From: a virus
Strand: one strand, 5' to 3'
Virus record (IMG/VR): IMGVR_UViG_3300042886_000261
Coordinates: 1-64,000 of that record
DNA: 64,000 nt
The notes below the pieces were generated by a model. It was not told where the DNA came from, ran no database searches, and was given only the letters and a program-made list of their open reading frames with translations. Shown here one piece after another: positions 1,599 through 27,980 of the stretch (position 1 is its first letter; each line of letters opens with the position of its first letter). Position numbers and translations under genes: made by a program.

Positions 1599-4349
1599 TT
1601 ATTTTTTGTTATCAGATTTTCCTTTAACATCAAATTTATTTTTGTTTTCTCTAGCTATTTGCAATTGTTTATCAGCAATATTTTGTTGAACCATGAGTTT
1701 TTCTCTCTCTAATCCTGCTTTTTGATTATTGCTAGAAGTCCTATTAGATTCTTTTTGTCTCTCTAAACTCATTTGACTAGTAAACTGTTCTGAGTTTTGT
1801 ATTTCTCTTAGAGTATCATTGTAATCAGATTGTTGATTTTGATTAATATCTTGTGTAGCACCAAACCCAGCGGATCTAATTTCAGCAACAAGGATATCTC
1901 TCTGTCTATCTTTTTCTCCTCTAATGTCTTCTGAATCTCTTTTAAGTTTTTCATCTTCCGCTCTTGCTTTTAATGCTTGATCTTGCATGTCTTGTTGATG
2001 TTTCATTTCTGCATCTTTCTGTGCTTTAACTTTTTGCTCAGAATCTTTAAGTACACTATTTAATTCAGATATACTTTCTGACTGCATTAATTTTCCTAAG
2101 TCATATATTGAAGCTCCTGTAGTATTATTAGATATTGCCATGTTTTTCAATTGCTCTAATACTGCTCTATAGTTAGCTTTAGTAGTTGCAAATATATTAA
2201 GATCTCTCATTAATAAATCTGTACCATTAATCTGGAAGTTTACTTTTTCATCTGCAGAAGTCATATATGATAACCTAGCAGAAGGTTTAGTAGATTGATA
2301 AAACTGTGCAAGATCTGTTCTCATCTGATGTACTCTTGGCATTAAGTAATCTGAGTGTTGTATAAAGTACATTTCTGTTTGAGCATAAGATGATCCAACT
2401 GCTTGTTCTACACCTGTTGCAGTTTGTTGAGATAACTGCTGACCCATTCTTTGTGGATTAATACCTATAACTTCATATGCTTGTTGTTTCATATATGTAG
2501 CTAATTGTATTCTTGACATTAACCTATTAGTCTGTTCTAGGTCTAATTTCTGAAAGTGTTGGAAGTTAAGAGCATTCTCTGTATTAGTAATACTGGTATC
2601 TAAAGGAAGCATCTGAAAATTCTTCATTGCTACATAAGCTTTAGCTAAATTGTTTTTACCCCAGTCTTCACCCATAGAGTGTCTTGGTAATGCATTCTGA
2701 TCTAATAAGATAACTGTACCTAACTCATCTACTAAGATATCTGCTATTTGATTATTAACAATGTTATATCCTATCTGGAAAGGTTTCATTAAATCTATTA
2801 ATGCAGTTGACTTAGTATTTCTATCTGAGAATACTGCACCTTCTACTGGTAGTTTACATCCGTATAAACTATTATCACCTTTAAATTGAAATCTAAGTGG
2901 TCCTATATTTTGTTTATCAACACCAATATATATAGGAGTAAATCCACCAGGGTTATTCATACCCCAAAAAGAAGGAATATTTGGTCCAACTTTAATACCA
3001 CCCCATACCTCATTAATCCAAATCCAGTCTATATGCTCACCATATACAATATTGTCTTTAGTTTTATTTTTAAAGAGTCTTGTATCATACACGGGTGAGT
3101 CTGTTACTTTATAGTCTTCAGTAATAATTTCTGTAATTACTTCACCTGAGTCAGTAACTTTAGTTAAGTGACCTACTTTTCTTTGAGATTTCCAATATGC
3201 TGTAGTACAACGTAATAGATATGCAGTACCTTGATCATAATAATCTTCTCCTTCTCTAAGTATGTAATTAACAATATCTCCTCCGTTGAATATACTATTA
3301 GCTGCTGCAGTAGAATATTGTCTGAATCCTAATGAAGGCATATTAGTATTCCACTCATGTGATTTAGTAGCATCATAAAATGATCCGTCATTCTGAGTAC
3401 CACCAATATTATATCCTGCAGATCTGATAGGATAGATAGCTTCTAATGATGCCATCTGATCTTCATTCATCATATATCCATACTTGTCAATAACATCTGC
3501 TACTGTAAGCATGTCAGTTTTACCAACCCAGTTAGATTGTGATATGTATCTTGCATCAGGAGACTTATGATAAAATGTTAATACAGGATTCCATAATTCT
3601 ACATCATAATCATCTTCCATCATACGCATGTGCCAGAACTCTCTATCAGTAATAAGCATATCTCTGAAACCTCTTTCTTCTAACTCATCCATTCTGAATC
3701 TTTCAGTATCAACTTCATGTTGATGAGTAGCCCATTGTTCTACTATAGATCTATAATCTTTTTTAAAGAATTTTTCTATTTCAGGTAGTGTTTTAAGTTT
3801 TTCTGGATTTAATTTTTCTTGTGCTTCTGGAGATTCTGGATTAAGACCTTGTTCAATTAATGCAGATGTTATCTTCATCTGTGCATCTTGCATTAAGGTG
3901 TCTTCTACCATTTGTCTTTTTTGCTCCATCATATCATTATATGATCCTTCATCAACAGCACGGTAAGATAATTTACTTGATCTTTTAGCAAACTCAGCTA
4001 CAAGAACATTAATTACATTGGGTATAATTGGATAAAATTTAAGTTCAAGTGCAGAAGAATCTTCTTTAGTAAGAGTCTCAATTATATCTCTATAATCATT
4101 ATCTTCCTCTACAATGTAGTCAGACTTATCAATAACACCTTTAGCTAACTTATAATTTTTCATTAACCTACGGGCATTTCTCTTAATCTGTTTAAGACCA
4201 TTCCACTCTAACCAGTCAAGATTCCAAGCTGCCCACTTATCATCTTTTTCTGCTTTAGGAATAAACTGTAAAGGTTGAGTTATACTACCTAACCTGTTGT
4301 GTTCTGTCTTTGCTCCTTTTTTTAACTGTAGTGCATTATATACTTGCAT
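1599..4349 (-). CDS. Portal protein (crAss-like)
   Basis: 916 aa directly downstream of TerL; YPIIPNVINVLVAE and LMKPFQIGYN segments and a long C-terminal coiled coil typical of crAss-like portals. Confidence 0.85.
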   Translation of the reverse strand: MQVYNALQLKKGAKTEHNRLGSITQPLQFIPKAEKDDKWAAWNLDWLEWNGLKQIKRNARRLMKNYKLAKGVIDKSDYIVEEDNDYRDIIETLTKEDSSALELKFYPIIPNVINVLVAEFAKRSSKLSYRAVDEGSYNDMMEQKRQMVEDTLMQDAQMKITSALIEQGLNPESPEAQEKLNPEKLKTLPEIEKFFKKDYRSIVEQWATHQHEVDTERFRMDELEERGFRDMLITDREFWHMRMMEDDYDVELWNPVLTFYHKSPDARYISQSNWVGKTDMLTVADVIDKYGYMMNEDQMASLEAIYPIRSAGYNIGGTQNDGSFYDATKSHEWNTNMPSLGFRQYSTAAANSIFNGGDIVNYILREGEDYYDQGTAYLLRCTTAYWKSQRKVGHLTKVTDSGEVITEIITEDYKVTDSPVYDTRLFKNKTKDNIVYGEHIDWIWINEVWGGIKVGPNIPSFWGMNNPGGFTPIYIGVDKQNIGPLRFQFKGDNSLYGCKLPVEGAVFSDRNTKSTALIDLMKPFQIGYNIVNNQIADILVDELGTVILLDQNALPRHSMGEDWGKNNLAKAYVAMKNFQMLPLDTSITNTENALNFQHFQKLDLEQTNRLMSRIQLATYMKQQAYEVIGINPQRMGQQLSQQTATGVEQAVGSSYAQTEMYFIQHSDYLMPRVHQMRTDLAQFYQSTKPSARLSYMTSADEKVNFQINGTDLLMRDLNIFATTKANYRAVLEQLKNMAISNNTTGASIYDLGKLMQSESISELNSVLKDSEQKVKAQKDAEMKHQQDMQDQALKARAEDEKLKRDSEDIRGEKDRQRDILVAEIRSAGFGATQDINQNQQSDYNDTLREIQNSEQFTSQMSLERQKESNRTSSNNQKAGLEREKLMVQQNIADKQLQIARENKNKFDVKGKSDNKK

Positions 4350-4355
4350 ATTCTT

Positions 4356-6566
4356 TTATTTTAAATTTTTAAATGGTGATCTGTTAAATTTTTGATTTTC
4401 ACCTAATCCACTTCTACCCATATGTCTAAAAGGACTACTCTTTAAGGTATACAAATTTTTTGAATTTTCCAATTTTTTACTTGCCTCATCTCTTACAATT
4501 CTTTTTGTATAACCCATATTAGCTTGTTGGATTTTAAGAAATGAAACTAATGCAGAAAAAGCTACTAACCTATCCACGTTGAGTCCATCTTGATAAGCCT
4601 GCATTTCTTTCATTAACATTATATCCGGTATTCTTTCTACACCATAATGTATCTTTACAGTAGTACCATCATCTTTCTGTATATGATCTATCTCTTCAGT
4701 TAAGAAATCTTGAGTATAACTGATCATATGATTCTTAAATAGTACTCCTGTATTTCTCCATCCGTATTCCTGGAATACATTTGCATTAGAACCTAAATCT
4801 TTTAAGAATACTATTTTGTTTCTTGGTACCAGATATCTTTGTTTCTTTCTTGATATCATGTGGTTTATAAATTGAGATATATTATTCTCTACTATAGTCC
4901 ATGCATTATACCATTCTATTATTAACTCTAGTCTCTCATGTGTTTTATTGATATCATCAAACCTTCCACACCATGCTGCTACAATTTTATCTCTTTCTAT
5001 AAATGTCTCAGCCTCACCATTAGTAACCTTAGTTACTTCAACTGGAGCTTTCATTATATATATGGAACATAGTGAGTCTGAGGTAGTTGTCTTTCCTTCT
5101 GCAACAGGGTCAATACTACCATAGTACATACCAAATGTAGGATCTGGTACTGGTCTTTCCCATACTACTAATGTACCTGTTTTATCTTCTGTCTTCTTAG
5201 ATATAGGGAATTCTGCTATTGGTAATTTATTAGTAGCTTTTACTTTTACTTTACCGGTTTCATCTCTAGATATATCAAGAAACTCTGAAGAGTATTCTTT
5301 TTCTTCTATTCTTTTTATCTGAGCATTTACAAGATGTGGTGGGAATTTAGCCTCTTTTCTAAATGCAAATGCCTCTTCTATATTTCTTGGATGCTGAGAT
5401 ACCTCAAGTTGATAATCTTTAGGTTCTTTATTTTTCTTGATTTCCTCAAAGTATTCATCTAAAGCAATTAATGCTTCTTGGACAAGTGAATTACCATAGT
5501 CATCTATATATGGTGGCATAGACCATTGTTCCGGTATAAACAATCCTGATTCTCCCCATGTATTATCTTTATCAATTAGATTAGTTTTAACTGGGTATAT
5601 ATCATTACTAATTGGATCAAGTATCATTTTCTTTAAAGGACCACATTGATCAAGATCCCCTACTGATCCTGCAGCAATAAATAATCCTGTAGTAATCATA
5701 CCAGACTTAAGTGCTGGCTTGATATATCCAAAAGTTGTATCCATCTTGGGAGCAATTCCTGCTTCCTCATGAAAGAAGAACTTAACTGGACCCCCTACAC
5801 CATTTGTTGGATCTTTCTCAAAAGACATACCTTGCATAGTACCTTTAAGTCCTATTTCAGCTTTTCTATCACCTTTTCTTATTTCAATTTTTTGTTGCCA
5901 CATCATTATTTTATCTGGAGACATAGGTCTATACCATGCAGTATGTTCATTTAAGAATGCTGCATACTCAGATAAAAACTTCCATGTACCTTTCTCATTG
6001 ATGTAATCTTTAAGTGAGGCACCCATTTTTAATGTGACCCCTGCTTCAAACCATAACTGATTAATGAGTTTACCTGCATGAAAGTATGAACTAGCTATCT
6101 GTCTTTTTTTAAGAATAGCCACGTGCATGTAGTTTATCTCTGCAAGTATCTCATATAAAGCCATGTGATATTGTGCATCTCTTATCTTAGCAAATCCAAA
6201 CTTTTGCTCTTCCTTATCAAAGATAGGTAAGAAGTTTAACCACATATAATAATCTCTTGTAAGGAACCAGGTTTTAGGTCCTGATTTAATTATTACACCT
6301 AATCTGCATTTAGCTTTTTGGTCTTCCCAATAGTTAATAAAATCTTTAGATTTAAAGGGAGCTACACAATATACTTTATCTATATTGAATTTTGTTGATT
6401 CAGATATAAATATTTTATTACTAACATCATCAAATTCATATTCACCTGGCTCTTTAAATAATGCAAACACAAACTCACCAAATTCTTTTCTTGTATCAAA
6501 AGATGTAGTAGTCCATGTTCCATTATCCCAGGTGGGGATATCCGTGTACATATTTTCCATAATCAA
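4356..6566 (-). CDS. terL: Terminase large subunit
   Basis: ATPase motif LKKRQIASS, Walker B FFHEEAG, nuclease-domain GSIDP and DRLVAF; adjacent to portal. Confidence 0.92.
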   Translation of the reverse strand: MIMENMYTDIPTWDNGTWTTTSFDTRKEFGEFVFALFKEPGEYEFDDVSNKIFISESTKFNIDKVYCVAPFKSKDFINYWEDQKAKCRLGVIIKSGPKTWFLTRDYYMWLNFLPIFDKEEQKFGFAKIRDAQYHMALYEILAEINYMHVAILKKRQIASSYFHAGKLINQLWFEAGVTLKMGASLKDYINEKGTWKFLSEYAAFLNEHTAWYRPMSPDKIMMWQQKIEIRKGDRKAEIGLKGTMQGMSFEKDPTNGVGGPVKFFFHEEAGIAPKMDTTFGYIKPALKSGMITTGLFIAAGSVGDLDQCGPLKKMILDPISNDIYPVKTNLIDKDNTWGESGLFIPEQWSMPPYIDDYGNSLVQEALIALDEYFEEIKKNKEPKDYQLEVSQHPRNIEEAFAFRKEAKFPPHLVNAQIKRIEEKEYSSEFLDISRDETGKVKVKATNKLPIAEFPISKKTEDKTGTLVVWERPVPDPTFGMYYGSIDPVAEGKTTTSDSLCSIYIMKAPVEVTKVTNGEAETFIERDKIVAAWCGRFDDINKTHERLELIIEWYNAWTIVENNISQFINHMISRKKQRYLVPRNKIVFLKDLGSNANVFQEYGWRNTGVLFKNHMISYTQDFLTEEIDHIQKDDGTTVKIHYGVERIPDIMLMKEMQAYQDGLNVDRLVAFSALVSFLKIQQANMGYTKRIVRDEASKKLENSKNLYTLKSSPFRHMGRSGLGENQKFNRSPFKNLK

Positions 6567-25433: not shown

Positions 25434-25488
25434 TTTTTTTCTTGCCTGCGGCAGCTTTTATTTATTCAGCTCTAAACTATTAGGGATA
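25434..25488 (+). repeat. Early-region repeat copy (triloop hairpin + CAGCT..ATTCAGCT..AAACT..GGGATA)
   Basis: Near-identical to 25953-26004; partial copy at 25144-25193. Confidence 0.8.
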
Positions 25489-25517: not shown

Positions 25518-25844
25518 ATGGAAACTGTTAAAGACCCAATTGCGGTTTGTACTATTAAAAGTATAGACGCAGAAATCAGTATCAATACCAATGGTAAAAG
25601 ATACAAAAAAGTAACTTTAATCACTGCTTCAGGGAAACCTGCTAGAGGAGTGATTTATGAAGTTGTGTGGGATAAAGTATCTCAGGGAGATGAAGTAAAT
25701 GTGGCGTTATCCTTAATGGATGATAACAAAACACTTATCCCAAGTGTATTAGGATTACCAATGGAATCATTATCATATGATGATTTTGGTATCACTGCAC
25801 CTGCACCTGCTGTTAAAGATGATATGGAAAACCCATTCTCTTAA
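25518..25844 (+). CDS. OB-fold/SSB-like early protein
   Basis: Beta-rich (NGKRYKKVTL) with acidic DDMENPFS tail. Confidence 0.5.
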   Translation: METVKDPIAVCTIKSIDAEISINTNGKRYKKVTLITASGKPARGVIYEVVWDKVSQGDEVNVALSLMDDNKTLIPSVLGLPMESLSYDDFGITAPAPAVKDDMENPFS

Positions 25845-25855
25845 CACGGAAGAAT

Positions 25856-25892
25856 AAACCCTTACCTTAATAGGTAGGGGTTTATTATTTTT
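25856..25892 (+). terminator. Intrinsic terminator
   Basis: aaacccttacc/ggtaggggttt hairpin plus T-tract. Confidence 0.7.
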
Positions 25893-25952
25893 ATTCCCAT
25901 TGTAGTTAAATGTATTACTGTGTTTGATATACTGTGTATGATGCACTATGTA

Positions 25953-26004
25953 TTTTTTCTTGGCTTTGCCAGCTTTATTATTCAGCTTTAAACTGTAGGG
26001 GATA
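25953..26004 (+). repeat. Early-region repeat copy
   Basis: Matches 25434-25488 with a covarying hairpin stem. Confidence 0.8.
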
Positions 26005-26470
26005 GTAGTGTTGGTAAATTATGTGGTCTATTGATATAAAGATATAATGTCATTTAACTACATGGTCTTATTATATATACTTAGTCAGATGCATTAAGTA
26101 TAAGTTGACAGTAATGTTGTATTTATATTAATCATATTGACAGTCTCACACCGGTACTTGTAGTCAAATTGATTATATTATAGGTGATGTTAGTTATGTT
26201 GTAGGTAATGTTGTAACATGCTGGTAGTTAAATAGTTATGTGGATATAATTTGTGTGAGAATGTGTGAGATAAAGTAGTTGACAGTCAAACACCCACCTA
26301 AACTAATGCTTTAACTCACATCTGTAACTACCTGATTAGGCTATATCTATATTAATATATGGCTAAATCATGAACTTAGTCTACTCACTCACATTACAAT
26401 ACTATATTCTTATCTATTAGTTAGTAGGAGAGTATAATAGCTATTGAATCCGGAATCTTAATAAATTTAA

Positions 26471-26683
26471 AATAGTAATGTACCATTCTCACTTCCCAAG
26501 GGTGAGCAGTTGTAATACACATATAGACTCAGTTGAAACCTCCAAAGGCTCCCTTAAAAAGCCCAATAGAATATTTGGTAAATACTGTTTAAAATGGTGT
26601 ATGTAACATGTCTGTGATAGACTCTTTAATTAGAGAACTAAAACATCAGCTTATGTATTACAACTGAGTACAGAGGGATTATT
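26471..26683 (+). ncRNA. Twister-like self-cleaving ribozyme (type P1) with ~135-nt insert in P5
   Basis: P1 aatag/ttatt; UAA cleavage loop 26476-78; P2 tgta/taca; P4 ctcac/gtgag with loop (t)TCCC-AA-GG; T1 TCCC/GGGA; T2 CC/GG; GA after P2'; 13-bp P5. Confidence 0.65.
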
Positions 26684-26684
26684 A

Positions 26685-27225
26685 CCGTGATGTCCTGTTT
26701 GGGTTCTTGAATACACGTAAAAACTGAAGAACATCCTATCCAGTAAGTTGCTGGCGTTGGCTCACCATAACAGACAAGTGAGAAATTAAATGTAGGTGAC
26801 AACCATTAACCAAAGAGGATCTTTGGGGTTACGCTGAACAGATTGACAAAGTCTTTAGTATCATAAATCGGGGATGCCCAGTTCAGTATTGATACACTAC
26901 ATTTTAATAACATAGTCCTATGCACCTTAACCAATAAAAGCTAAGGGACTTAATCCGTTAAACAAAGGTGGTTAGCAATAACCAGTATATAAGGAGTGTT
27001 ATTATTATATGATTCAAGACAATCAATCCTGAAGAGGATTTGTCAGGAGAAATTCATAAGGCTGAACAATAGTTCAGTATATAAACTTATGATGTCTAGC
27101 CTGATATAAACAAGCAGAGTACATTGTACTAACTTATCTGTGCTTTTGGAGTTAGCTACCAAGGGTGGGAACGGGGAACAGAGTGTGTAGATATTCCATG
27201 GGTCTACACCTGCTTGTTTATTTTT
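26685..27225 (+). ncRNA. Multi-domain structured non-coding RNA region
   Basis: No ORF in the track, GC-elevated, many nested inverted repeats (e.g. 26788-95/26897-904, 27054-60/27086-92, 27106-17/27210-21). Confidence 0.55.
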
Positions 27226-27265
27226 ATTAACTGAAAAATTATTAACTGAAACTAAAACTGAAAAG

Positions 27266-27406
27266 ATGAAAGAATTAACATGTAGTCAATGTGGTAATAT
27301 TATTATAGAATCTTATGTAACAAAAGGAACATATATACAATGTTTTGATTGTTATGCACAAGAAGAATATGATTTTGAAAACCCAAATCTTAATGATTAT
27401 GAATAA
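27266..27406 (+). CDS. Small zinc-finger protein (46 aa)
   Basis: Not in track; MKELTCSQCG...QCFDC. Confidence 0.55.
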   Translation: MKELTCSQCGNIIIESYVTKGTYIQCFDCYAQEEYDFENPNLNDYE

Positions 27407-27644
27407 AGAAATAGTATATTGGACAATGAGAAATGGTCAGCAAATAGATGTTGACCTAATGGATGAAAAACATTTAAGAAATACTCTTAAAATGATTATT
27501 AGAAACTCTAATAAACAAGTAGTTAAACCTGTTAAAGAGTTTAAATTCAATGGTGAGATTGCACAAGAAATGCATGATAATATGATCATTGAAGAAATAA
27601 TGGGAGATATGATGGATGAATGGTATGATATAACTGAAAATTAA
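27399..27644 (+). CDS. Early hypothetical protein (start MNKEIVYW)
   Basis: W....G....V..M...HL.N.LKM motif common in phages; ATG at 27399 preferred over the track start. Confidence 0.65.
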   Translation: MNKEIVYWTMRNGQQIDVDLMDEKHLRNTLKMIIRNSNKQVVKPVKEFKFNGEIAQEMHDNMIIEEIMGDMMDEWYDITEN

Positions 27645-27658
27645 AAACTGAAAAGATT

Positions 27659-27961
27659 ATGAAAGCAATTAGATTTGGTAAGTTAAAAAGTACAACTATT
27701 GTTGAATTAGTAGCAATGATTGGTGTAGATACAAACCCTAACTCAAAGGTTTATATTAGCACAGAAAAACCTGCAAAACAAGCATGTGAATATACCATTG
27801 AAGAATTAGCAAATATGTTAATGATGGCAAAACAAGCCAAGTTAGCAGAAGATGCAAGAACATTTGAGTTTAATAACCGTGAATTATATGAGTATATAAA
27901 ATACAAGATTAAACTTGAATATGATAAAGAACAACAAGAAGAAGATTATAATTTTAACTGA
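27659..27961 (+). CDS. Early hypothetical protein
   Basis: 100 aa, AACTGAAA leader. Confidence 0.6.
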   Translation: MKAIRFGKLKSTTIVELVAMIGVDTNPNSKVYISTEKPAKQACEYTIEELANMLMMAKQAKLAEDARTFEFNNRELYEYIKYKIKLEYDKEQQEEDYNFN

Positions 27962-27980
27962 AAACTAAAAACTGAAAATT

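What the first reader, a model, noticed from the sequence alone, without database searches (positions are those of the whole stretch)
26685..27225. About 540 nt of densely structured non-coding RNA directly behind the ribozyme
Seen: consecutive closed domains. 26689-26782 has GTTCTT/AAGAAC, CCAGT/GCTGG and CTCAC/GTGAG. 26788-26904 is a multiway junction closed by AAATGTAG/CTACATTT. ~26914-26970 has crossing AGTCC/GGACT and CACCTT/AAGGTG, i.e. a pseudoknot. 27018-27104 has hairpins. 27106-27221 is closed by a perfect 12-bp helix. The helix GCTGAACA...GTTCAGTAT occurs twice (26833/26881 and 27061/27072). Inference: with the twister, a ~750-nt ribozyme-processed large ncRNA or string of RNA modules made at the very start of infection, perhaps an anti-defence decoy or scaffold.
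Basis: partly seen in the sequence, partly recalled or inferred. Interest (0 to 1): 0.8.

Follow-up and report, generated by a model that had tools for sequence, protein, structure and literature searches.

The report
Modular structured RNA behind phage twister
A lake crAss-like phage carries, just behind a self-cutting twister-type RNA, a 545-base removable cassette of five folded non-coding RNA domains; it turns up in environmental RNA libraries, and its function is still unknown.

Summary
Window 26685-27229 has no credible ORF, no Rfam match and no Pfam match. It consists of five domains (D1-D5).

- **Structure.** D4 and D5 are supported by compensatory changes. In D5, 10 of 38 pairs changed on both sides across 5 homologues, and 0 of 500 shuffles did as well. 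Of 20 substitutions against a 94.5 % relative across D2-D5, only 2 break a pair of the window-only fold (10.2 expected, P = 0.0002). G·U pairs favour the + strand.
- **Cassette.** It is absent where L150 joins the twister directly to the gene leader. It is replaced by unrelated non-coding DNA in close relatives. D4 alone is missing in some variants. In L161, D2-D5 stand alone behind a promoter-like hairpin, without a twister.
- **RNA.** Contigs from three metatranscriptome studies hold 26681-27003 joined to 27107-27198/27201.
- **3' end.** D5 is a conserved three-way junction closed by a 12-bp helix plus a U-run.

Best reading: a stable, accessory early ncRNA with its 5' end set by twister cleavage and its 3' end set by D5. 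A decoy role is untested. Precedent exists in the abundant early lncRNAs of phage phi14:2. This scan has already noted the same twister family on other phage genomes. Folding energy alone is weak evidence here.

The parts
25953..26004 (+). Promoter-like hairpin repeat (context). It is a candidate start of the transcript that contains the twister and the cassette.
   Evidence: Repeats at 25434-25488 and 25953-26004 have covarying 5-bp stems and 3-nt loops. A homologue of this element lies directly in front of the stand-alone D2-D5 unit in L161:3083-3132. Promoter activity is not tested.
26471..26683 (+). Twister-like self-cleaving ribozyme, with a 135-nt insert in P5 (26520-26654). Predicted cleavage is between U26476 and A26477.
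   Evidence: The conserved halves 26476-26517 and 26655-26684 recur in about 145 loci. In 120 distinct cores, P2 covaries (UGCAC/GUGCA 70 cores, UGUAC/GUACA 41 cores), P4 has 6 fully complementary stem versions, and P5 is paired. There is no Rfam hit. RNA contigs begin at 26487/8.
26685..26741 (+). D1a, the 5' part of the cassette. It holds the hairpin GUUCUU/AAGAAC around a copy of the leader word AAAAACUGAA. It is weakly structured.
   Evidence: D1 as a whole has z = +0.35. No homologue was found. It shares an 11-nt word with the gene leaders at 27642 and 27966.
26742..26789 (+). D1b, a conserved 48-nt block with two small hairpins (CCAGU/GCUGG and CUCAC/GUGAG).
   Evidence: The block is nearly identical in L088 and L146, where it lies between two tandem twisters. 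The single change is U·G to U-A. A DNA variant diverges at 26783.
26788..26904 (+). D2, a multi-way junction closed by AAAUGUAGGUG/CACUACAUUU.
   Evidence: z = -2.46. L161 is 94.5 % identical. Its changes fall in loops or give G·U pairs, and the GAUG loop becomes GUGA. It is held in RNA contigs.
26905..27003 (+). D3, which folds either as a pseudoknot or as a nested long-range helix.
   Evidence: z = -0.96 without the pseudoknot. All five L161 substitutions are unpaired or wobble-compatible. It is held in RNA contigs.
27004..27106 (+). D4, three hairpins. It is an optional module.
   Evidence: z = -3.86. The homologue in L149 is 80 % identical, with changes on both sides in the 27041-47/27100-06 stem and in the apical GCUGAAC/GUUCAGU stem. 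Exactly 27004-27106 is replaced by TATT in contigs of three RNA runs and one DNA run.
27106..27226 (+). D5, a conserved three-way junction closed by a 12-bp helix (27106-17 with 27210-21) and followed by a U-run. It is the probable 3' end and terminator of the RNA.
   Evidence: There are five homologues at 75-95 % identity: the window, L161, L149, L193 and L194. The structure has 38 pairs, 10 with changes on both sides, and 98.4 % of cells paired. 0 of 500 shuffles and none of the slid controls come near. 19 G·U cells favour the + strand. All five copies keep the U-run. RNA contigs end at 27198/27201 in adapter sequence.
27229..27264 (+). A-rich gene leader with three AACTGAAA(A/C) words. The cassette is inserted just in front of it.
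   Evidence: There are 9 copies of AACTGAAAA in the window against 2.1 expected, six of them in front of the first three early ORFs. L150 joins GAGGGATTATTA directly to ACTGAAAA.
27266..27406 (+). First ORF behind the cassette: 46 aa with a CxxC...CxxC pattern.
   Evidence: There is no Pfam family. It is replaced by other sequence in a DNA variant that keeps D5, so it is not linked to the cassette.

Best explanation
**What it is.** Window 26685-27229 is an accessory, exchangeable cassette. It encodes a highly structured non-coding RNA on the + strand of a freshwater crAss-like phage, at the head of the rightward (early-type) gene block.

**How it is made (mostly inferred)**
1. Transcription starts upstream, at the promoter-like hairpin near 25953-26004 and/or the TTGACAG sites at 26105-26285.
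2. The twister-like ribozyme cuts between U26476 and A26477. This removes the upstream leader and leaves a 5'-OH end inside a compact pseudoknotted fold.
3. The RNA runs through five self-contained domains.
4. It ends at D5, a conserved three-way junction whose 12-bp closing helix is followed by a U-run.

With both ends buried in stable folds, the roughly 750-nt product should be long-lived and should accumulate far above the neighbouring mRNAs.

**Modularity (shown).** The domains are separate modules that recombine between phages.
- D2-D5 is an autonomous unit elsewhere.
- D4 is optional.
- D5 also serves alone behind an ORF.

**What it does (inference, about 30 %).** It acts in trans as a protein-binding decoy or sponge for a host factor, such as a ribonuclease, an RNA-binding defence protein or a part of the translation machinery. 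This would be a dispensable host-takeover or counter-defence accessory, not a core function.
For: **Non-coding**
- No ORF exceeds 54 aa under table 11.
- Only scattered frames open under TAG=Q or table 4.
- No Pfam match.
- A 1-nt indel separates the window from L161.

**Structure under selection**
- D5: 10 of 38 pairs changed on both sides, 98.4 % of cells paired, 0 of 500 shuffles as good.
- D4: compensatory changes against L149.
- Of 20 substitutions against L161, 11 are unpaired, 7 keep the pair and 2 break it. Random placement would break 10.2 (P = 0.0002), judged on a fold of the window alone.

**Strand**
- 19 G·U cells in D5, and several A-U to G·U or C-G to U·G changes, fit only the + strand.

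**RNA**
- Contigs of three metatranscriptome studies hold 26681-27003 plus 27107-27198/27201.
- These contigs are short (448-536 nt), and two of them run into Illumina adapter.
- A DNA contig of the same variant continues for 4.8 kb into the genes.
- In run X8 the contig's depth figure is 121, against 2-9 for flanking contigs. This is a hint only.

**Cassette nature**
- L150, L087 and L171 join the twister to the leader directly.
- L002, L005, L012 and L161 hold other non-coding DNA in the same slot.

**Autonomy**
- L161:3134-3570 sits behind a terminator plus a promoter-like hairpin.

**Precedent**
- In the crAss-like phage phi14:2, two long intergenic regions of the early block are transcribed above most genes, from the earliest time point, and persist through infection. 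Their function is unknown (10.1101/2020.03.07.982082).
Against: - Folding energy is unremarkable for D1 and D3. A sliding scan does not set the region apart from coding DNA. The 750-nt whole has z = -1.59.
- D2 and D3 have only near-identical relatives, so they show no pair changed on both sides.
- Self-cleavage is unproven, and Rfam twister models do not match.
- Contigs cannot give strand, ends or level of an RNA, and an RNA library can carry DNA.
- Nothing indicates a binding partner or any trans activity.
- No complementarity to the rest of the phage genome exceeds chance.
- In four of five cases D5 lies 30-45 nt in front of an ORF, which also suits a cis-acting role.
Confidence: 0.6

Rival explanations
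1. It is a cis-acting leader or attenuator. The folded domains, and above all the D5 helix plus U-run, set how much transcription reads through into the early genes from 27266 onward. They might do so in response to a protein or a small ligand, like a very large riboswitch or an antitermination leader.
For: - The region lies between the promoter region/ribozyme and the first ORF.
- In the window, L149, L193 and L194, D5 ends 30-45 nt in front of a start codon.
- In one RNA run, the contig depth figures are 121 for the contig over 26681-27198 and about 3 for the contig at 27240-27259 just beyond D5. This is a hint only.
Against: - The genes behind D5 differ in every case.
- Relatives run the same leader and genes without the cassette, for example L150 and L087.
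- D2-D5 form their own unit in L161, followed by another RNA module.
- No known aptamer matches.
- Five domains and 545 nt far exceed known leaders.
Confidence: 0.2
2. It has no function. The stretch would be debris of recombination and decayed genes in a hypervariable slot, and the helices would be chance or hitch-hiking terminator remains.
For: - Presence/absence polymorphism, and unrelated occupants of the same slot in close relatives.
- D1 folds no better than shuffles.
- No homologues of D2 or D3 beyond near-identical copies.
Against: - Compensatory changes in D4 and D5, and a substitution pattern that spares pairs.
- D5 is kept at 75-95 % identity in different phage backgrounds, with an invariant 26-nt core.
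- The region is held in RNA contigs of three studies.
Confidence: 0.08
3. It acts as DNA. The stretch would be an origin of replication, a packaging site or a protein-binding region at the point where the two divergent gene blocks meet, with cruciform-forming inverted repeats.
For: - It lies in the 1.4-kb gene-free gap where GC skew changes sign.
- Both strands fold about equally well.
Against: - G·U pairs and wobble substitutions fit one strand only.
- Modules recur between ORFs and between ribozymes in other phages, away from any strand switch.
- The cassette is absent in relatives.
- It is held in RNA contigs.
Confidence: 0.05
4. It encodes small proteins, possibly under a reassigned stop codon as in some crAss-like phages.
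For: - Table 4 opens a 104-aa frame (26593-26907, +) and a 120-aa frame on the - strand.
Against: - Those frames need 2-5 recoded stops.
- The neighbouring genes read normally under table 11.
- No Pfam hit for the ORFs called under table 11.
- A 1-nt indel against L161, and the substitutions follow RNA pairing rather than codon position.
Confidence: 0.02

Closest known systems
Early long non-coding RNAs of the crAss-like Cellulophaga phage phi14:2 (intergenic g004-g005 and g005-g006; Drobysheva et al., bioRxiv 10.1101/2020.03.07.982082)
   Same: - A long ORF-free stretch at the head of the rightward early gene block of a crAss-like phage.
- It ends in a hairpin plus U-run.
- It is followed by a repeated A-rich leader word and small genes.
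- There the RNA is more abundant than most mRNAs, and its function is unknown.
   Different: - No sequence or model similarity: R1 finds nothing in L195.
- No twister motif was found in phi14:2 by simple motif searches.
- One of the two phi14:2 regions holds a tmRNA gene by ARAGORN. The window has none.
Twister self-cleaving ribozyme, type P1 with optional P5 (Rfam RF03160 and relatives; Roth et al. 2014, from my own knowledge)
   Same: - The element in front of the cassette has the twister order of helices.
- It has a UCCCAAG-type P4 loop, the GAGGG strand and a U-A site.
- P2, P4 and P5 covary.
   Different: - It concerns the flank, not the 545 nt themselves.
- Rfam models do not score it.
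- P1 is missing in most copies.
- P5 holds inserts of 50-290 nt.
Ribozyme-associated structured RNAs (RAGATH motifs) and the large phage-linked ncRNAs GOLLD and ROOL (Rfam; from my own knowledge)
   Same: - Structured RNAs of unknown function.
- They lie next to self-cleaving ribozymes or in phage genomes, with several domains.
   Different: - None of these Rfam models matches the window, even at E up to 10.
- This RNA is a chain of exchangeable 50-120-nt modules rather than one conserved architecture.
Intrinsic (factor-independent) terminators
   Same: - The D5 closing helix is followed by a conserved U-run, with an A-tract in front.
- It stands at the end of a transcription unit.
   Different: - The 'loop' is a conserved 91-nt three-way junction with an invariant hairpin and linker.
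- The standard scan, which allows loops of 3-8 nt, does not list it.

Membership tests
Twister ribozyme (flanking element 26471-26683) | Helices P2 and P4 (and the optional P5) in the twister order, kept by covariation | tested here: met
   In 120 distinct cores, P2 reads UGCAC/GUGCA in 70 and UGUAC/GUACA in 41. P4 has 6 stem versions, all 5 of 5 paired. P5 is paired for 7-9 bp beyond CAG/CUG in most copies.
Twister ribozyme (flanking element 26471-26683) | Score against the curated covariance models of the twister clan | tested here: not met
   No twister model matched at gathering score or at E up to 10 in the window. None matched at E up to 1 in eight relatives, including copies with short P5 arms.
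Twister ribozyme (flanking element 26471-26683) | Double pseudoknot T1/T2 and the conserved loop nucleotides | tested here: inconclusive
   UCCC/GGGA and CC/GG are present by eye. One variant (L194) changes UCCC/GGGA to UCAC/GUGA on both sides. My wider scripted test failed for technical reasons.
Twister ribozyme (flanking element 26471-26683) | Self-cleavage at the U-A step | not testable with these tools
   There is only a weak hint. RNA contigs of two studies begin at 26487/8, 10-11 nt behind the predicted site, while a DNA contig runs through.
Intrinsic terminator (D5) | Stable helix directly followed by a U-run | tested here: met
   The 12-bp helix plus UUUUU is kept in all five homologues, with one G-C to G·U change.
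Intrinsic terminator (D5) | Simple hairpin with a short loop | tested here: not met
   The helix encloses 91 nt folded into three hairpins. The consensus scan does not report it.
Intrinsic terminator (D5) | Transcripts end there | tested here: inconclusive
   RNA contigs of two studies end at 27198 and 27201, in the last hairpin loop, and run into adapter sequence. Contigs cannot define RNA ends.
Known large or ribozyme-associated ncRNA families in Rfam (GOLLD, ROOL, RAGATH, OLE, HEARO, raiA, tmRNA, tRNA) | Match to the family's covariance model | tested here: not met
   There were no matches in 26685-27225 at E up to 10. ARAGORN finds no tRNA or tmRNA in the window.
crAss-like phage early long ncRNAs (phi14:2 type) | Long ORF-free stretch in the early block, on the strand of the early genes, present as RNA | tested here: met
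   See for the absence of a gene. See for the + strand. See for contigs in three RNA libraries.
crAss-like phage early long ncRNAs (phi14:2 type) | Made from the earliest time point and persisting through infection | not testable with these tools
   This needs an infection time course. Neither host nor phage is cultured.
crAss-like phage early long ncRNAs (phi14:2 type) | Homology to the phi14:2 RNAs | tested here: not met
   There is no hit of model R1 or of the twister motifs in L195. There is no BLAST match in the phage collection.
Riboswitch or cis-regulatory leader | Constant linkage to a regulated gene or pathway, and a conserved aptamer | tested here: not met
   The downstream genes differ in all five D5 contexts. 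The cassette is absent in front of the same leader in L150. No aptamer family matches.

The most novel reading that the evidence does not exclude
The cassette is one sample of a large, recombining repertoire of structured RNA modules that lake crAss-like phages place at the head of their early genes. The repertoire would include:
- inserts in the twister P5 arm;
- inserts in the ACUCUCA...UGAGAGUAC scaffold;
- free-standing domains such as D1b, D2-D3, D4 and D5.

Self-cleaving ribozymes and structured terminators would cut these into stable pieces. Together they would form an RNA-based host-takeover or counter-defence arsenal, the RNA counterpart of the protein anti-defence islands of other phages.
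Probability: 0.2. Interest if true: 0.85.

Novelty: new variant of a known kind. Interest (0 to 1): 0.6.

Why it matters
crAss-like phages are among the most abundant viruses known. The only transcriptome of a cultured relative (phi14:2) showed unexplained, very abundant early non-coding RNAs.

This locus gives that phenomenon an anatomy:
- a ribozyme-defined 5' end;
- a chain of exchangeable folded modules;
- a conserved three-way-junction terminator module.

The natural variants already act as deletion and swap experiments, and environmental RNA data hold the RNA.

It also offers a concrete biological context for twister ribozymes, whose natural role is still open. Here they would produce stable 5' ends for phage RNAs and mRNAs.

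If the modules turn out to bind host factors, this would be a new layer of phage-host conflict fought with RNA.

Tried and rejected
**Searches that found nothing useful**
- Rfam at gathering score on the whole window, and at E up to 10 on 25800-27400, gave only chance-level hits outside the region. Rfam on 19 and on 8 related loci gave no twister and no other family in the cassettes.
- BLAST of 25900-27300 against 50,697 phage records found no match.
- BLAST of the 541 nt against the whole genomes of four relatives and of the phage itself found nothing above chance.
- Exact-word scans of IMG/VR with D2 and D3 words returned only chance hits.
- The D5 word found two true homologues and one chance hit.
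- The D5 core is absent from 185,579 species genomes.
- Covariance model R1 (D5) over about 0.9 Mb of fetched loci and over phi14:2 found nothing beyond the five training copies.

**Analyses that did not help**
- The sliding 120-nt z-score scan was not discriminating. Coding DNA nearby scores as low.
- Complementarity of the RNA to the rest of the 106.7-kb genome stops at 13-16 nt, which is chance level. This includes the 11-nt AACAGATTGAC word shared with 28103.
- Alternative genetic codes gave no convincing frame.
- Pfam on the small ORFs gave nothing.

**Readings considered and dropped**
- Splicing of D4 is rejected, because the 27003/27107 joint also stands in a DNA run.
- Parts of the window without cover in the RNA contigs are not used as evidence.

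**Tools or scripts that failed**
- A scripted test of T1/T2 covariation failed because of my pattern design.

Full report
**Setting**

The window is part of a 106,750-base IMG/VR virus record. Its portal, terminase and DNA polymerase match phage families. Runs that hold the sequence come from lake and other freshwater metagenomes.

Leftward genes end near 24.8 kb. Rightward small genes start at 27266. A rightward ORF (25518-25844) with a canonical terminator lies in between. The stretch 25895-27265 has no credible gene.

**The observation**

Against dinucleotide shuffles the 541 nt fold with z = -2.98 on the + strand and -3.40 on the - strand. I name the domains D1 to D5.

| Domain | Coordinates | z-score |
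|---|---|---|
| D1 | 26685-26784 | +0.35 |
| D2 | 26786-26906 | -2.46 |
| D3 | 26907-27003 | -0.96 |
| D4 | 27004-27106 | -3.86 |
| D5 | 27105-27226 | -3.05 |

A 120-nt sliding scan from 24 to 30 kb shows equally low scores inside coding DNA. The full 750 nt give only z = -1.59. Thermodynamics alone is therefore weak evidence here.

The stretch is not coding:
- No ORF exceeds 54 aa.
- Recoded stop codons open no convincing frame.
- There is no Pfam match.
- There are no tRNA or tmRNA genes.
- No Rfam family matches at E up to 10.

**The ribozyme in front**

Relatives found through neighbouring proteins keep 26476-26517 and 26655-26684, but not what lies between or behind them. A word from the 3' strand and a word from the 5' half retrieved about 145 loci from viral and metagenome collections.

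In 120 distinct cores:
- P2 covaries: UGCAC/GUGCA in 70 cores and UGUAC/GUACA in 41.
- P4 has six stem versions, all fully complementary.
- P5 is paired and carries inserts of any size.
- P1 is mostly absent.

No Rfam twister model scores these elements, so I call the element twister-like. Earlier notes of this scan describe the same family on other phage genomes.

Across 90 distinct loci the median distance from the last twister to the next ORF of 40 aa or more is 100 nt, and a quarter lie at 30-37 nt. The window's 589 nt is among the five longest. 17 of 145 loci have two or three twisters in tandem.

**The 545 nt are a cassette**

- In L150 the strand GAGGGATTATTA is joined directly to ACTGAAAA, the gene leader that follows the cassette in the window. 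TATTA stands at both borders of the window's cassette (26680-84 and 27225-29).
- L087 and L171 are alike.
- The closest relative upstream (L005, 88 % identical over 25851-26519) and L002, L012 and L161 hold other, unrelated non-coding DNA of 340-1080 nt in the same slot.
- The whole genomes of four relatives contain nothing like the cassette.

**Modules**

- **D1b (26742-26789).** It recurs, almost unchanged, between tandem twisters in L088 and L146.
- **D2-D5.** They recur at 94.5 % identity in L161:3134-3570. There they follow an ORF, a terminator and a homologue of the window's hairpin repeat 25434-25482, which is a promoter-like element with covarying stem. No twister precedes them. D5 closes the unit.
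- **D4-D5.** They recur at 80 % identity in L149, behind a twister and a different scaffold RNA.
- **D5 alone.** It follows an ORF in L193 and another RNA module in L194.
- **D4 (exactly 27004-27106).** It is replaced by TATT in contigs of three RNA runs and one DNA run. This is a DNA variant, not splicing. Another DNA variant diverges at 26783.

**Structure under selection**

D5 has five homologues at 75-95 % identity:
- The consensus is a 12-bp closing helix around three hairpins, 38 pairs in all.
- 10 pairs changed on both sides, and 98.4 % of cells are paired.
- 0 of 500 shuffles reach this, and slid controls give 0-2 such pairs.
- A 26-nt core, including the first hairpin, is invariant.
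- All copies keep the U-run.

D4 shows changes on both sides in two stems against L149 (and by eye for the apical stem, which shifts register).

For D2-D5 I folded the window alone and then placed the 20 substitutions seen in L161. Eleven are unpaired, seven keep the pair and two break it. Random placement breaks 10.2 on average (P = 0.0002).

Nineteen G·U cells in D5 and several changes to G·U fit the + strand only.

D2 and D3 have no distant relatives. Their folds, including the proposed D3 pseudoknot, remain predictions that are compatible with the few substitutions.

**RNA evidence**

Six of the 24 listed runs that hold part of 26400-27300 are metatranscriptomes. I laid three RNA runs and one DNA run.
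- Each RNA run has a short contig (448-536 nt) covering 26681-27003 joined to 27107-27177/27198/27201.
- Two of these contigs run into Illumina adapter at 27198 and 27201, in the loop of the last hairpin.
- The DNA contig of the same variant continues for 4.8 kb through the genes.
- In run X8 the depth figure of this contig is 121, against 2-9 for contigs on the flanks.
- RNA contigs of two studies begin at 26487/8, 10-11 nt behind the predicted cleavage site, while a DNA contig runs through.

Contigs cannot prove strand, ends or level. I take these results as consistent hints of an abundant, discrete RNA.

**Precedent**

In the crAss-like phage phi14:2, two long intergenic regions of the early block are transcribed above most genes, from the first time point, and do not decline. 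The authors left their function open (10.1101/2020.03.07.982082).

The phi14:2 locus has the same layout: a long ORF-free stretch, a hairpin with a U-run, a repeated A-rich leader word and then small genes. It has no sequence likeness, no such twister by simple motif searches and no D5.

**Reading**

*Shown:*
- The cassette is a non-coding, + strand, structured, exchangeable set of modules.
- It is held in RNA libraries.
- D5 is a conserved structured element with a U-run at the end of units.

*Inferred:*
- Twister cleavage sets the 5' end, and D5 sets and protects the 3' end. Together these give a long-lived RNA of about 750 nt, or about 440 nt for the stand-alone D2-D5 unit.

*Open:*
- What it does. 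Its dispensability, its mobility, its place at the head of the early genes and the phi14:2 precedent make an accessory trans-acting RNA the best guess, such as a decoy or sponge for a host factor.
- A cis role in read-through control is the main rival.

**Novelty**

No catalogued family matches. The general kind, an abundant early ncRNA of a crAss-like phage next to phage ribozymes, is already known, and this scan has met the twister family before. I rate the finding as a new variant of a known kind, with moderate to high interest.

Noticed in passing
L005:3441-3555; also L149, L024, L194, L193:9903-10058, L220 and others: A second conserved RNA scaffold. UACUCUCAUCCAAGCAGG and CAAGG(G/A)UUGCAACCUUGUGAGAGUAC flank a hypervariable insert of about 60-150 nt. 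There are 19 distinct instances, three of them 2-3 nt behind a twister. The outer helix ACUCUCA/UGAGAGU shows one change on both sides (L194: ACUCUUA/UAAGAGU). No Rfam family matched L005. It is a candidate new scaffold or ribozyme motif.
   Followed up: partly
window 27229-27264, 27632-27654, 27956-27978: The word AACTGAAAA occurs 9 times in the window against 2.1 expected. Pairs or triplets of it lie 5-12 nt in front of the first three early start codons. Related phages use their own repeated leader words (AAAGAACTTAAAACT in phi14:2, ATCTTTAAAACAAACAAT in L193). One copy, AAAAACUGAAGAAC, sits inside the D1a hairpin.
   Followed up: partly
L195 (phi14:2, NC_021806) 4031-4500: ARAGORN calls a tmRNA gene (tag GSSVQKLAMVA) inside the long intergenic stretch 2905-4601, where the phi14:2 paper reports highly expressed long ncRNAs of unknown function. 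One of those RNAs may simply be a phage tmRNA.
   Followed up: partly
L010:1111-1268: A tRNA match (36.7 bits) with an 85-nt insert at the anticodon loop ends directly in front of a twister-like element. The usual UAAUGUACC strand of that element is replaced.
   Followed up: no
L146:751-1326, L094, L088, L117 and others: Two or three twister-like ribozymes stand in tandem in 17 of 145 loci. They are either back to back or separated by 100-1000 nt of non-coding modules.
   Followed up: partly
L194:830-700 (- strand): A diverged twister-like copy reads UUUCACAAGG and GCAGAGUGA where the family has UUCCCAAGG and ACAGAGGGA. This is a matched change in the two strands of the proposed T1 pseudoknot.
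   Followed up: no
L220, L221, L251 (also L232, L237, L238): Complete twister-like elements of this family occur in contigs binned into MAGs of Chitinophagaceae, Sediminibacterium and Bacteroidia (one contig is 117,852 b, the size of a phage genome). They also occur in an unclassified bacterium MAG and a Phycisphaerales MAG. This is a weak hint at Bacteroidota hosts.
   Followed up: no
window 26105-26111, 26137-26143, 26279-26285: TTGACAG occurs three times in the non-coding stretch between the promoter-like hairpin and the twister. In phi14:2, middle promoters resemble the sigma-70 -35/-10 consensus. These sites could therefore be host-polymerase promoters feeding the same RNA.
   Followed up: no
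L161:3590-3670 and L194:1300-1245 (- strand): A further shared module (...AACATTCATATTGTCTGATGTATCAGAAATGTTCTACCC...) lies behind D5 in L161 and in front of D5 in L194.
   Followed up: no
window 25434-25488, 25953-26004; L161:3083-3132, 3996-4045: A hairpin repeat with a covarying 5-bp stem and a 3-nt loop is followed by CTTTA..TTATYCARCTC. It stands in front of an ORF and, in L161, in front of the stand-alone D2-D5 unit. A partial copy of its downstream part follows D5 in L161.
   Followed up: partly
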